From the human T2T-CHM13v2.0 reference genome, Homo sapiens, in NCBI RefSeq assembly GCF_009914755.1, contig NC_060926.1: a DNA stretch of 64,000 nucleotides; one strand, written 5' to 3'. The notes beneath the pieces are model-generated. The model ran no database searches and was not told the origin of the DNA. It saw nothing but the letters and a program-made list of their open reading frames with translations. Both the position numbers and the translations under genes were made by a program. Below are positions 44,239 to 60,299 of this stretch, in pieces. The stretch's first letter is position 1; every line of letters begins with the position of its first letter.

Positions 44239-44310
44239 TTTTTTGATATTGGATTTGGAGGCAGGATGAAAGTCTTTCTTGCACATGAAGTTGGCGAAGG
44301 ATTTCCCCAT
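44239..44310 (-). CDS. CIR1: CIR1 coding exon 1 ([24 protein letters not shown]), start of the Cir_N domain
   Basis: ATG at 44310; 72 nt = 24 codons; donor AAA|GTGAGT at 44238; peptide recognised as the CIR1 N-terminus. Confidence 0.96.
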
Positions 44311-44399
44311 CTTGGAACTGGAACTAGGGAAAGCAGGGGCTAGATCTGTTAGCAACGTAAACAAACTCAGCCGCCTAACCGGAACTGCGTTTCCAGCAG

Positions 44400-44505
44400 C
44401 AAGGGGGAACTTCCGAGATCAAAGGTGACAGCTTCCGGCAACTGATGCCTCCACTGGCCACTCCTCCCTCCGTCCACCTGTCACTTCGGGTAGCTGGGAG
44501 GCCAG
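44400..44505 (+). other. SCRN3: SCRN3 non-coding exon 1 (5' boundary approximate)
   Basis: Strong donor CAG|GTGAGG at 44506; exon 2 has an acceptor 9 nt before its ATG, so a non-coding first exon is required. Confidence 0.65.
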
Positions 44506-52766: not shown

Positions 52767-52979
52767 AGGGAGTTCGTAATATTTCTAATCAACTTTCCAT
52801 AACAACCAAGATTGCCCGGGAACACCCAGACATGAGAAACTATGCTAAGCGGAAAGGTTGGTGGGATGGTAAAAAGGAGTTTGATTTTGCTGCAGCATAT
52901 TCCTATCTTGACACAGCCAAGATGATGACTTCATCAGGCAGATACTGTGAGGGCTACAAGCTTCTAAATAAGCACAAAG
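52767..52979 (+). CDS. SCRN3: SCRN3 exon 5 ([11 protein letters not shown]...LLNKHK-G)
   Basis: Pyrimidine tract plus AATAG acceptor, 213 nt, donor AAG|GTAATT, phase 1 to 1. Confidence 0.95.
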
Positions 52980-53337
52980 GTAATTTTATCATATAAATAA
53001 TATTAGGATGACAAACTACATTTTGTGTAGATGTAATATGGGAATGATAACATCTGTTTTGGGGAATTATAATTAGTAAAAATATTGTTCTATTAAAATG
53101 AAAAATATTTATTATAAACCTATTTTTTTTTTATTATACTTTAAGTTTTAGGGTACATGTGCACATTGTGCAGGTTAGTTACATATGTATACATGTGCCA
53201 TGCTGGTGCACTGCACCCACTAACTCGTCATCTAGCATTAGGTATATCTCCCAATGCTATCCCTCCCCCCTCCCCCCACCCCACCACAGTCCCCAGAGTG
53301 TGATATTCCCCTTCCTGTGTCCATGTGATCTCATTGT

Positions 53338-57163
<3,826 letters not shown>

Positions 57164-57226
57164 TATGATGATAGCTGGTGATTTTGCTCGTTAGTTGATG
57201 CAGTTTCTTCCTAGTCTCGGTGGTCT

Positions 57227-58243
57227 TTACATTTTGGCATGATTTTGCAGCGGCTGGTACCGGTTGTTCCTTTCCATGTTTAGCGCTTCCTTCAGGAGCT
57301 CTTTTAGGGCAGGCCTGGTGGTGACAAAATCGGTCAGCATTTGCTTGTCTGTAAAGTATTTTATTTCTCCTTCACTTATGAAGCTTAGTTTGGCTGGATA
57401 TGAAATTCTGGGTTGAAAATTCTTTTGTTTAAGAATGTTGAATATTGGCCCCCACTCTCTTCTGGCTTGTAGGGTTTCTGCTGAGAGATCTGCTGTTAGT
57501 CTGATGGGCTTCCCTTTGAGGGTAACCCGACCTTTCTCTCTGGCTGCCCTTAACATTTTTTCCTTCATTTCAACTTTGGTGAATCTGACAATTATGTGTC
57601 TTGGAGTTGCTCTTCTCGAGGAGTATCTTTGTGGCGTTCTCTGTATTTCCTGAATCTGAACGTTGGCCTGCCTTGCTAGATTGGGGAAGTTCTCCTGGAT
57701 AATATCCTGCAGAGTGTTTTCCAACTTGGTTCCATTCTCCCCATCACTTTCAGGTACACCAATCAGATGTAGATTTGGTCTTTTCACATAGTCCCATATT
57801 TCTTGGAGGCTTTGCTCATTTCTTTTTATTCTTTTTTCTCTAAACTTCCCTTCTCGCTTCATTTCATTCATTTCATCTTCCATTGCTGATACCCTTTCTT
57901 CCAGTTGATCGCGTCGGCTCCTGAGGCTTCTGCATTCTTCACGTAGTTCTCGAGCCTTGGTTTTCAGCTCCATCAGCTCCTTTAAGCACTTCTCTGTATT
58001 GGTTATTCTAGTTATACATTCTTCTAAATTTTTTTCAAAGTTTTTAACTTCTTTGCCTTTGGTTTGAATGTCCTCCCGTAGCTCAGAGTAATTTGATCGT
58101 CTGAAGCCTTCTTCTCTCAGCTCGTCAAAGTCATTCTCCATCCAGCTTTGTTCTGTTGCTGGTGAGGAACTGCGTTCCTTTGGAGGAGGAGAGACGCTCT
58201 GCGTTTTAGAGTTTCCAGTTTTTCTGTTCTGTTTTTTCCCCAT
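57227..58243 (-). CDS. L1 ORF1p, intact 338 aa
   Basis: MGKKQNRKTGNSK...NHAKM, full length, with REKG, ARR and YPAKLS motifs retained. Confidence 0.93.
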   Translation of the reverse strand: MGKKQNRKTGNSKTQSVSPPPKERSSSPATEQSWMENDFDELREEGFRRSNYSELREDIQTKGKEVKNFEKNLEECITRITNTEKCLKELMELKTKARELREECRSLRSRRDQLEERVSAMEDEMNEMKREGKFREKRIKRNEQSLQEIWDYVKRPNLHLIGVPESDGENGTKLENTLQDIIQENFPNLARQANVQIQEIQRTPQRYSSRRATPRHIIVRFTKVEMKEKMLRAAREKGRVTLKGKPIRLTADLSAETLQARREWGPIFNILKQKNFQPRISYPAKLSFISEGEIKYFTDKQMLTDFVTTRPALKELLKEALNMERNNRYQPLQNHAKM

Positions 58244-58539
58244 CTTTGTGGTTTTATCTACTTTTGGTCTTTGATGATGGTGATGTACAGATGGGTTTTC
58301 GGTGTGGATGTCCTTTCTGTTTGTTAGTTTTCCTTCTAACAGACAGGACCCTCAGCTGCAGGTCTGTTGGAATACCCTGCCGTGTGAGGTGTCAGTGTGC
58401 CCCTGCTGGGAGGTGCCTCCCAGTTAGGCTGCTCGGGGGTCAGGGGTCAGGGACCCACTTGAGCAGGCAGTCTGCCGGTTCTCAGATCTCCAGCTGCGTG
58501 CTGGGAGAACCACTGCTCTCTTCAAAGCTGTCAGACAGG

Positions 58540-58750
58540 GACATTTAAGTCTGTAGAGGTTACTGCTGTCTTTTTGTTTGTCTGTGCCCTGCCCCCAGAG
58601 GTGGAGCCTACAGAGGCAGGCAGGCCTCCTTGAGCTGTGGTGGGCTCCACCCAGTTCGAGCTTCCCGGCTGCTTTGTTTACCTAAGCAAGCCTGGGCAAT
58701 GGCGGGTGCCCCTCCCCCAGCCTCGCTGCCGCCTTGCAGTTTGATCTCAG
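58540..58750 (+). promoter_or_regulatory. L1 antisense promoter region (about nt 400-600 of the 5'UTR), co-oriented with SCRN3
   Basis: Positional inference from known L1 5'UTR architecture; activity at this copy is not shown. Confidence 0.6.
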
Positions 58751-58914
58751 ACCGCTGTGCTAGCAATCAGCGAGATTCCGTGGGCGTAGGACCCTCCGAG
58801 CCAGGTGTGGGATATAGTCTCGTGGTGCGCCGTTTTTTAAGCCGGTCTGAAAAGCGCAATATTCGGGTGGGAGTGACCCGATTTTCCAGGTGCGTCCGTC
58901 ACCCCTTTCTTTGA
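58699..58914 (+). CDS. L1 ORF0, intact 71 aa (MAGAPPPASL...RCVRHPFL)
   Basis: ATG at 58699 in GCAATGG context, 72 codons including stop, antisense in the L1 5'UTR; donor-like sites after nt 106 and 191. Confidence 0.85.
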   Translation: MAGAPPPASLPPCSLISDRCASNQRDSVGVGPSEPGVGYSLVVRRFLSRSEKRNIRVGVTRFSRCVRHPFL

Positions 58915-60299
58915 CTCGGAAAGGGAACTCCCTGACCCCTTGCGCTTCCCAGGTGAGGCAATGCCTCGCCCTGCTTCGGCTCGCGCACGGTGCGCGCACC
59001 CACTGGCCTGCGCCCACTGTCTGGCACTCCCTAGTGAGATGAACCCGGTACCTCAGATGGAAATGCAGAAATCACCCCTCTTCTGCGTCGCTCACGCTGG
59101 GAGCTGTAGACCAGAGCTGTTCCTATTCGGCCATCTTGGCTCCTCCAGAATAAACCTATTTTTTGAGGTAAGTATTATACAATTGTGAGAGGGTCATGAT
59201 TCTTTTGAAGGTCAAGTTCAGATTTTCAATGCTCAGATGCATTTTTTCAGTTCTTATTAATATTCTTAAAACAAAATTGAGATTACTTTTCTTCTGAGAA
59301 TTCATTGCAACCTGGAGACAGGCTTCTTTGACTATTGCTGCTGCTGCTGTTATTTATTTTTGGGTAGTACTCTTATCAGTTATTTTCTTGTATATAGAAC
59401 TTCTGGCCAGAAGACAAACTGAGCAGATATAGGAATTCCCTCTTTCCACTCCAAAACTTGAGAAATGTTGAATAAAATATTTAAACATTCAAGACATATA
59501 TAGCTAAGTTCAAATACAAGAAGAGAAAATCACCAGGTACCAAAAATGAAGAGAGGGCCCACACAATCCTCCTCATCTCTGTGTCAGTTGGGGGATTCTG
59601 GACCAGATATACACTTTAGAGGCTAGAGTGTTAACATCCATGAGAATGTAGGTGTACAGGTGAAAAAGATCCATTTGGGGAGCAGGAACTGGACTCCTTA
59701 TTACGGCTATGAGTCTGAAAAATGCTACTCCACTCCCTACCCAGAGTTTAGGATGGAACTGAGCTGCCTGCTGCTCCAGGATGTGGATCAATACAGTTTC
59801 TTGTGAGAGATTGAACTCTCAGCCACATTTATTTTGTGGGCTCACCTGGAGCTACCTGGTGAGGAACAAACACTGGTTTGTAACCAGTAAACCAGACAAG
59901 ATCCCAGCATACCTGTATTTCTATACCCACTATATGAATATTTGGTATGACAGATATTTATATTTTACTCAAATTTCCCATCCAAATGGGAAATCTGCTA
60001 TAATGAATCTACATGTATTTGCCACTGAAAATATTTGTTACATGGGGGTTCAGTTGAAGATGTAGTTTCTACGACTATTATGATAGTTTCTACTGTAATG
60101 TCCTCAAGTTCACTTCTCTTTTCTTCTGCATGATTTAATCTGCTGTTAATCTCATCTAGTAATATTTTGATTTGTTATTATAATTTTAATCTCTACAAGT
60201 TCCATTGGTTCGTTCTGTATAACTCCCATTTCTCTATTCTTTACTTTCAAGTTTTTAAAAAATCGTTAAGCACGTTTAGCATCTTTATAATAATAATTA

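What the first reader, a model, noticed from the sequence alone, without database searches (positions are those of the whole stretch)
58699..58810. Intact L1 ORF0 with a splice donor in phase with SCRN3: predicted ORF0-SCRN3 fusion protein
Seen: the L1 is antisense to SCRN3, so its antisense promoter points down the gene. ORF0 is intact (71 aa). Its first donor CCAG|GTGTGG follows nt 58804, ORF0 nt 106 (35 codons + 1, phase 1). SCRN3 exon 5 also ends in phase 1 (AAA G|GTAATT), so the next exon must accept phase 1. Established: primate L1 ORF0 can splice to neighbouring exons to give fusion proteins. Inference: splicing to exon 6 gives MAGAPPPASLPPCSLISDRCASNQRDSVGVGPSEP-G joined in frame to SCRN3 from residue 252. 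This product would lack Cys6 and would be expected where L1 is demethylated (ES cells, germline, tumours). The second donor (after 58889) is phase 2 and out of frame. A one-in-three phase match can be chance, and exon 6 is outside the window.
Basis: partly seen in the sequence, partly recalled or inferred. Interest (0 to 1): 0.8.

Follow-up and report, generated by a model that had tools for sequence, protein, structure and literature searches.

The report
Known L1 antisense promoter inside SCRN3
A young L1 retrotransposon lying backwards in an intron of the human SCRN3 gene acts as an extra promoter for the last three SCRN3 exons, which is already on record, and the proposed L1-ORF0/SCRN3 fusion protein is possible in frame but unproven and at best a minor product.

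Summary
ORF0 is intact (71 aa, 58699-58914). Its three CAG|GT donors lie after 58804, 58889 and 58952. SCRN3 exon 5 ends in phase 1. Exon 6, fetched from outside the window, accepts phase 1, so 58804->exon 6 gives an open 210-aa frame.

The setting is ordinary and already catalogued:
- An intact ORF0 is commonplace: 150 of 150 scored genomic copies are full length without stops.
- L1PA2-to-SCRN3 antisense-promoter transcripts are listed as 18 spliced ESTs from NT2, H1/H9 ES cells, placenta and carcinomas.
- The same L1 carries three GENCODE v25 start sites for SCRN3.

After mapping the ESTs to the window:
- Only 4 of 18 contain the ORF0 ATG.
- 11 of 18 start downstream of both ORF0 donors. They must use a later donor, almost certainly the consensus GAG|GTAAGT after 59167, which lies 18 nt outside the L1.
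- Those transcripts cannot encode a fusion.

Which donor the four ATG-containing ESTs use could not be seen.

Verdict: this is a known alternative promoter, and the in-frame fusion is a plausible but undemonstrated minor isoform. Interest is low.

The parts
53129..59149 (-). Full-length L1 (labelled L1PA2 in two published tables), antisense in SCRN3 intron 5
   Evidence: Pfam L1 ORF1, endonuclease and RT domains. RepeatMasker name L1PA2. NCBI repeat mask 53087-59149 (hub annotation).
53114..53128 (.). Target-site duplication, left copy
   Evidence: 15/15 identical to 59150-59164 (family D11)
59150..59164 (.). Target-site duplication, right copy, directly followed by the flanking donor
57227..58243 (-). 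L1 ORF1, intact, 338 aa
   Evidence: trimerisation, RBD-like and dsRBD-like domains, each full length
53338..56871 (-). L1 ORF2 remnants, broken into ORFs of 344, 128 and 572 aa
   Evidence: Endonuclease and RT matches are split over the pieces.
58650..59149 (.). CpG-rich part of the L1 5'UTR (GC 0.60, 34 CpG, observed/expected 0.76), the likely methylation-sensitive promoter region
   Evidence: Overlaps the RefSeq 'enhancer' 58273-58874 of the hub annotation.
58653..58768 (+). Start cluster A: 7 of 18 ESTs and 2 of 3 GENCODE v25 start sites (about 58701 and 58746). 4 ESTs start at or before 58698 and so include the ORF0 ATG.
   Evidence: Positions are good to about +/-3 nt.
58699..58914 (+). 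L1 ORF0, 71 aa plus stop
58802..58810 (+). Donor 1, CAG|GTGTGG; last exon base 58804; phase 1. The only donor in frame with SCRN3 exon 6. Exon 6 lies outside the window at window-scale 71548-71710 (= L002 7548-7710), with acceptor ttctctag|GA.
   Evidence: rough score 4.46
58887..58895 (+). Donor 2, CAG|GTGCGT; last exon base 58889; phase 2. Gives a 68-aa product.
   Evidence: 5.39
58950..58958 (+). Donor 3, CAG|GTGAGG; last exon base 58952; past the ORF0 stop
   Evidence: 7.44
58914..59120 (+). Start cluster B: 11 of 18 ESTs and the third GENCODE start site (about 59008). All lie downstream of donors 1 and 2.
59165..59173 (+). Consensus donor GAG|GTAAGT in unique flanking DNA; last exon base 59167. 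Inferred donor of the cluster B transcripts.
   Evidence: score 7.62, the best of 3210 + strand GT in the window. It is the only GT scoring >=3 between the last EST start and 59658.
52767..52979 (+). SCRN3 exon 5, ends in phase 1
   Evidence: hub annotation

Best explanation
A young, full-length L1PA2 inserted antisense into intron 5 of SCRN3. Its ORF1 is intact and its ORF2 is broken. The CpG-rich 5'UTR serves as a methylation-sensitive alternative promoter, the L1 antisense promoter. It makes 5'-truncated SCRN3 transcripts: an L1-derived first exon joined to exons 6-8.

Shown:
- The anatomy.
- The existence of such transcripts in public EST and GENCODE records.
- Two clusters of start sites.
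- The reading frames.

Inferred:
- Most recorded transcripts (cluster B, and any cluster A transcript that reads through) leave the L1 and splice from the consensus donor after 59167.
- In those transcripts ORF0 is either absent or ends at its own stop.
- They can give only free ORF0 peptide, short upstream ORFs, or an N-terminally truncated SCRN3 from Met259 (168 aa). That product lacks Cys6 and the first half of the peptidase C69 domain.

The in-frame ORF0(1-35)-SCRN3(252-426) protein of 210 aa has two requirements. The transcript must start upstream of 58699, and it must use the weakest donor (58804). It is therefore a possible minor isoform, most likely in embryonal carcinoma and ES cells, and not the main output.
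For: -: 18 spliced ESTs from L1PA2(-) into SCRN3(+), from NT2, H1/H9 ES cells, placenta, bladder, cervix and lung carcinoma, brain and marrow. [quoted passage not shown]
- GENCODE v25 has three SCRN3 start sites inside this L1PA2.
- after the hg19-to-hg38 shift, all three GENCODE start sites coincide with EST starts (3 of 3), which validates the mapping.
- 4 of 18 ESTs contain the ATG; 11 of 18 start after donors 1 and 2; 10 of 18 start after donor 3; 0 of 18 start after 59167.
- 59167 is the strongest donor, and the only GT scoring >=3 from the last EST start up to 59658.
- frames of all products.
- CpG observed/expected 0.76.
- (Pinson 2022, passages): most L1 chimeric transcripts run unspliced from the antisense promoter into the flank. 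Only 2.9% are spliced at their 5' end despite the two internal donors.
- (Criscione, section 7): the primary antisense start is near L1 nt 400. That is downstream of the ORF0 ATG at about L1 nt 450.
Against: - I could not see the exon blocks of any EST or GENCODE model, so no donor is directly shown.
- Criscione put SCRN3 in Table S7. That is the class where another EST suggests exonization of the L1, so assignment to the promoter is formally ambiguous.
- Cluster B ESTs come from libraries that, as I recall, were not cap-selected. Their starts may be truncations rather than a second start site.
- Length arithmetic favours internal donors for cluster A. With the 59167 donor, the three NT2 ESTs would be 841-931 nt, longer than I recall such single-pass reads to be. 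With donor 1 they would be 478-568 nt. In NT2 cells the fusion mRNA could therefore be a sizeable share of ATG-containing transcripts.
- The donor matrix is recalled and approximate.
Confidence: 0.7

Rival explanations
1. Transcripts from the antisense promoter that include the ORF0 ATG mainly splice from 58804 to exon 6. The 210-aa ORF0-SCRN3 fusion protein is translated and accumulates in L1-demethylated cells.
For: - The frame is open through to the SCRN3 stop in the last exon, so nonsense-mediated decay is not expected.
- ORF0 has the first ATG, in a strong context.
- 4 of 18 ESTs contain it. Two NT2 ESTs share one start about 46 nt upstream.
- Implied cDNA lengths fit donor 1 best for the NT2 and neuroepithelial ESTs: 347-568 nt (typical read lengths recalled).
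- ORF0-exon fusions are an accepted class (passages).
Against: - No junction was seen.
- Donor 1 scores lowest of the four donors.
- 14 of 18 ESTs lack the ATG.
- The fusion would keep only the C-terminal 175 residues of a single-domain Ntn-type hydrolase, without its nucleophile. Its stability is doubtful (inference). Pfam C69 matched only exon 4, at profile positions 122-176 of 402.
- Fusions are called rare relative to free ORF0: 57 of about 3200 loci.
Confidence: 0.2
2. Exonization rather than promotion. The antisense L1 5' end plus flank is a cassette exon spliced into ordinary SCRN3 transcripts, and the ESTs are 5'-truncated copies of those.
For: - Criscione listed SCRN3 in the table of loci where an independent EST supports exonization.
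- Cluster B ESTs are, as I recall, not cap-selected.
Against: - GENCODE annotates three start sites in the L1.
- Two NT2 ESTs share one start and a third lies 35 nt away. That EST series is, as I recall, from oligo-capped libraries.
- No AG acceptor precedes the tight cluster of starts at 59008-59019.
- The region is CpG-rich and overlaps a RefSeq regulatory feature (hub annotation).
Confidence: 0.07
3. Nothing functional. The transcripts are low-level by-products of a derepressed L1 promoter with no protein product of consequence.
For: - The phase match has a one-in-three prior.
- An intact ORF0 is generic.
- No open paper discusses SCRN3 together with L1.
Against: This is compatible with the best explanation rather than opposed to it. 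18 ESTs from at least 8 sources is a high count in a catalogue where 609 of 988 loci had a single EST (passage).
Confidence: 0.5

Closest known systems
L1 antisense-promoter chimeric transcripts (LCTs), e.g. L1-MET, L1-BCAS3, and the L1PA2-SCRN3 entry itself in Criscione et al. 2016 Table S7 and Jonsson et al. 2019 Supplementary Data 2
   Same: - Starts lie in the antisense 5'UTR of a young L1.
- The L1 sits in an intron, antisense to the gene.
- Transcripts are spliced to downstream exons in the sense of the gene.
- Sources are ES, embryonal carcinoma, placenta and tumour cells.
   Different: Nothing essential: this locus is one of the listed cases. One local peculiarity is a consensus donor 18 nt outside the L1, abutting the target-site duplication. 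It probably explains why this locus yields many spliced ESTs (inference).
L1 ORF0 and ORF0-exon fusion proteins (Denli et al. 2015, Cell 163:583; not held, known to me only through passages of citing papers and recall)
   Same: - A 71-aa antisense ORF with a strong start context.
- Two internal donors.
- Downstream gene exons in the same orientation.
- One donor is in frame.
   Different: No junction or translation evidence for SCRN3 was seen here. I could not check whether SCRN3 is among the 57 reported fusions.
N-terminally truncated isoforms from intronic alternative promoters
   Same: Transcripts that start after the ORF0 ATG, or that splice after its stop, leave Met259 as the first in-frame SCRN3 start. 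That gives 168 aa.
   Different: The truncation removes Cys6 and about 60% of the protein. A working enzyme is not expected (inference).

Membership tests
L1 ORF0 | Lies on the antisense strand of the 5'UTR of a primate L1PA1-8 element | tested here: met
   ORF0 is on the + strand inside a minus-strand L1 whose ORF1/ORF2 domains Pfam recognises. The element is named L1PA2.
L1 ORF0 | Open frame of about 70 aa starting at an ATG in a strong context | tested here: met
   71 aa; G at -3 and G at +4; no upstream ATG within 200 nt
L1 ORF0 | Two splice donors inside the ORF | tested here: met
   CAG|GT after 58804 and 58889. They score at the 98.8th and 99.5th percentile of all + strand GT in the window on a rough matrix.
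L1 ORF0 | Sequence shared with the ORF0 of other genomic L1 copies | tested here: met
   150 of 150 scored places are full length and 97-100% identical; 8585 first-look candidates
L1 antisense-promoter chimeric transcript | Transcription start inside the L1 5'UTR, antisense to the L1 | tested here: met
   From published tables, not my own data: 18 EST starts and 3 GENCODE v25 start sites map to 58653-59120
L1 antisense-promoter chimeric transcript | Spliced to annotated exons of the neighbouring gene | tested here: met
   EST ends map into exons 6, 7 and 8. The catalogue admitted only spliced ESTs that overlap a RefSeq exon.
L1 antisense-promoter chimeric transcript | Not explained by exonization of the L1 within a normal transcript | tested here: inconclusive
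   SCRN3 is listed in the table of loci where another EST suggests exonization. That EST was not seen.
ORF0-exon fusion protein | The transcript contains the ORF0 start codon | tested here: met
   4 of 18 ESTs start at or upstream of 58698. 14 of 18 do not.
ORF0-exon fusion protein | A junction from an ORF0 donor to the acceptor of a gene exon | not testable with these tools
   No EST sequences, block structures or junction databases were at hand. Implied lengths only hint at internal donors for cluster A.
ORF0-exon fusion protein | Reading frame continuous across the junction | tested here: met
   58804->71548 gives one 210-aa frame ending at the SCRN3 stop. 58889->71548 stops after 68 aa.
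ORF0-exon fusion protein | Evidence of translation (ribosome footprints, peptide) | not testable with these tools
   No such data were available.

The most novel reading that the evidence does not exclude
In human ES and embryonal carcinoma cells the ATG-containing transcripts from this L1PA2 splice from 58804 to exon 6 and are translated. That would give a hominid-restricted 210-aa protein: 35 residues of ORF0 joined to the C-terminal 175 residues of secernin 3. It would have no catalytic N-terminus. Its junction peptide would appear only where the L1 is demethylated, so it could serve as a tumour-restricted antigen or act on full-length secernin.
Probability: 0.15. Interest if true: 0.45.

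Novelty: already known. Interest (0 to 1): 0.22.

Why it matters
If the fusion were real it would add one case to the list of L1 ORF0 fusion proteins. It would also offer a junction peptide limited to L1-demethylated cells, the kind of product now screened as a tumour antigen.

As it stands the locus is a catalogued example of an L1 antisense promoter feeding a host gene. Its practical use is as a well-supported test locus: 18 ESTs and three annotated start sites. It could be used to ask how often ORF0 donors are chosen over a strong flanking donor.

Tried and rejected
- **Denli et al. 2015**, the source of the ORF0 fusion list, is not held. Macia 2011, Matlik 2006 and Speek 2001 are not held either. 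I could not learn which earlier source made Criscione flag SCRN3 as 'previously identified'.
The tables of Garza 2023, Pinson 2022 and Lanciano 2024 were therefore not searched for SCRN3. Criscione's peptide table was searched earlier for SCRN3 and for six EST accessions, and contains none.
- **Full-text searches** pairing SCRN3 with LINE-1, L1PA2, 'antisense promoter' or 'chimeric' gave 0 papers. With 'retrotransposon' there was 1 paper. I saw only its listing, and its title is about positive selection and enhancer evolution in great apes. One search was too loose to be informative.
- **Pfam on single exons** placed only exon 4 in Peptidase_C69. Exons 5-8 and ORF0 gave nothing at E<=1.
- **PDB sequence searches** with exon 4 and exon 6 pieces found nothing. 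How much of the fold the C-terminal 175 residues retain is therefore inferred, not shown.
- **Acceptor before cluster B**: I considered an acceptor just upstream of cluster B as an explanation for its starts. I rejected it because no AG precedes 59008-59019.

Full report
**What is in the sequence**

- The + strand carries a 71-aa ORF from ATG 58699 to the stop at 58912-58914.
- The start context has G at -3 and G at +4. There is no other ATG in the 200 nt upstream.
- Three CAG|GT donors follow: after 58804 (ORF nt 106, phase 1), after 58889 (nt 191, phase 2), and after 58952 (past the stop).
- The ORF lies in the 5'UTR of a minus-strand L1.
- Pfam recognises an intact 338-aa ORF1 with its three domains. 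It also finds endonuclease and reverse-transcriptase matches spread over three broken ORF2 pieces of 344, 128 and 572 aa.
- A perfect 15-nt target-site duplication brackets the element at 53114-53128 and 59150-59164.
- The last 500 nt of the 5'UTR keep 34 CpG (observed/expected 0.76, GC 0.60). The L1 body has 0.23 and the flank 0.06.

**The host gene**

- SCRN3 exon 5 ends AAAG|GTAATT at 52979. The coding length to that point is 754 nt, which is phase 1.
- Exon 6 lies outside the window. The genome is held, so I fetched 16 kb downstream and found exons 6-8 by their open frames and splice sites.

| Exon | Window coordinates |
|---|---|
| 6 | 71548-71710 |
| 7 | 73135-73309 |
| 8 (coding part) | 76373-76561 |

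- Joined in a script, the seven coding exons give 426 aa without internal stops.
- Exon 6 begins GA, so G+GA restores Gly252.

**Products by donor**

| Route | Product |
|---|---|
| 58804->71548 | one 210-aa frame: ORF0 residues 1-35, then SCRN3 252-426, ending at the normal stop in the last exon |
| 58889 donor | stops after 68 aa |
| 58952 or later donors | ORF0 ends at its own stop |

- The first SCRN3-frame ATG downstream is Met259, which would give 168 aa.
- Cys6 is in exon 2. It is the residue reported to become the N-terminal glyoxylyl group (passages of bioRxiv 10.1101/2023.02.02.526866).

**Is it special?**

- No. A search of the genome with the ORF0 protein met 8585 first-look candidates. 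All 150 that were scored are full length, 97-100% identical and free of stops.

**Is it new?**

- No, not as a transcript.
- Criscione et al. 2016 (PMC4908685) Table S7 lists 18 spliced ESTs running from 'L1PA2 (-)' into 'SCRN3 (+)'. I read parts 1 and 17 of that file.
- Their sources are NT2 embryonal carcinoma (3), ES cells including H1 and H9 (3), placenta, bladder carcinoma (5), cervical carcinoma, lung tumours (2), neuroepithelial cells, marrow, and one with no source given.
- Table S7 is the class where another EST also suggests exonization of the L1. The authors therefore report these loci apart from their main set.
- Jonsson et al. 2019 (PMC6639357) Supplementary Data 2 gives hg38 chr2:174404458-174410482 'L1PA2_610 (-)' with three SCRN3 start sites inside it. 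I saw passages only.
- The main text defines that table as GENCODE v25 start sites of protein-coding genes that overlap primate L1s.
- No open main text pairs SCRN3 with LINE-1, L1PA2, 'antisense promoter' or 'chimeric' (0 papers each). 'Retrotransposon' gave one paper, of which I saw only the listing; its title concerns great-ape lifespan and body mass.
- Denli et al. 2015, which holds the list of 57 ORF0 fusions cited, is not held. I cannot say whether SCRN3 is on it.

**Where the transcripts start**

- The L1 is 6024 nt in hg38. The same length fits window 53123-59146, which fixes the offset to within 3 nt.
- I added a recalled hg19-to-hg38 shift of 864,728. After that, the three GENCODE start sites coincide exactly with three EST starts (3 of 3). 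One EST also ends within 1 nt of the exon 6 boundary. The mapping is therefore sound.

| Cluster | EST starts (window) | Annotated start sites |
|---|---|---|
| A (7 ESTs) | 58653 (two NT2 clones), 58688, 58695, 58701, 58746, 58765 | about 58701, 58746 |
| B (11 ESTs) | 58914, ten at 59008-59060, 59117 | about 59008 |

- 4 of 18 ESTs contain the ORF0 ATG.
- 11 of 18 start downstream of donors 1 and 2.
- 10 of 18 start downstream of donor 3.
- None starts beyond 59167.

- Directly after the right target-site duplication the flank reads GAG|GTAAGT, with 59167 as the last exon base.

| Donor | Rough score |
|---|---|
| flanking, after 59167 | 7.62 (highest of 3210 + strand GT in the window) |
| donor 3, after 58952 | 7.44 |
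| donor 2, after 58889 | 5.39 |
| donor 1, after 58804 | 4.46 |

- The flanking donor is the only GT scoring 3 or more between the last EST start and 59658.
- The 11 cluster B ESTs are spliced to exons 7 or 8, so they need a donor there. I infer they use it.
- Such transcripts have a 45-aa upstream ORF from 59039 that ends two codons into exon 6. Met259 is the next in-frame start. They cannot make a fusion.
- This fits Pinson et al. 2022 (PMC9396940, passages). Most L1 chimeric transcripts run unspliced out of the L1 despite the two internal donors, and only 2.9% are spliced at the 5' end.
- It also fits Criscione's statement that the primary antisense start is near L1 nt 400, downstream of the ORF0 ATG.

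**What favours the fusion**

- I could not see exon blocks, so the donor used by cluster A is open.
- Implied cDNA lengths:

| ESTs | With donor 1 | With the 59167 donor |
|---|---|---|
| three NT2 ESTs | 478-568 nt | 841-931 nt |
| AA226814 | 347 nt | 710 nt |

- From memory, single-pass reads of those series are about 300-600 nt. That argues for an internal donor, but it does not separate donor 1 from donors 2 and 3.
- The placental EST fits the flanking donor better (566 nt against 203 nt).
- The fusion mRNA would have the first ATG in a strong context and its stop in the last exon, so translation would be expected if the junction exists.
- The product would keep only the C-terminal 175 residues of a protein in which Pfam's Peptidase_C69 model (402 positions) already aligns exon 4 to positions 122-176. 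It would lack the processed N-terminus. I expect no enzyme activity and doubtful stability (inference).
- PDB sequence searches with exon pieces found nothing to test this.

**Verdict**

- Most recorded transcripts cannot encode ORF0-SCRN3.
- I put about 50-60% on some 58804->exon 6 mRNA existing. I put about 15-20% on a detectable fusion protein, and a few per cent on any function.
- The kind (ORF0 fusion, L1 chimeric transcript) is known, and so is the locus. Interest is low.

Noticed in passing
window 58961-59188 (+): A 75-aa ORF crosses the L1/flank boundary and the 59167 donor in phase 0. Its ATGs at 59039, 59057 and 59063 would act as an upstream ORF in transcripts of the downstream start cluster. 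After splicing, that ORF ends two codons into exon 6.
   Followed up: partly
window 57227-58243 (-) and 53338-56871 (-): The L1 keeps an intact 338-aa ORF1 with all three Pfam domains. ORF2 is split into at least three open pieces of 344, 128 and 572 aa. The element could give ORF1 protein but, with ORF2 broken, should not be able to move on its own.
   Followed up: partly
window 44239-44505: The first exons of CIRSR (-) and SCRN3 (+) lie head to head, 18 nt apart (44400 against 44418, hub annotation). They sit in a CpG-rich stretch (observed/expected 0.60), which looks like a shared bidirectional promoter.
   Followed up: no
L003 2530-2595 (window-scale 76530-76595, outside the window): Around the SCRN3 stop codon, two adjacent stretches of about 28 nt look alike (each begins TTAGTTCTTAGTGATCA and ends GGTCAG). 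The frame I assembled is 426 aa, where I recalled 424. This may be a short tandem duplication at the end of the coding region.
   Followed up: no
window 58273-58874: RefSeq marks an 'enhancer' functional element over the L1 5'UTR, including the antisense-promoter region and the first half of ORF0. I could not see on what assay this rests.
   Followed up: no
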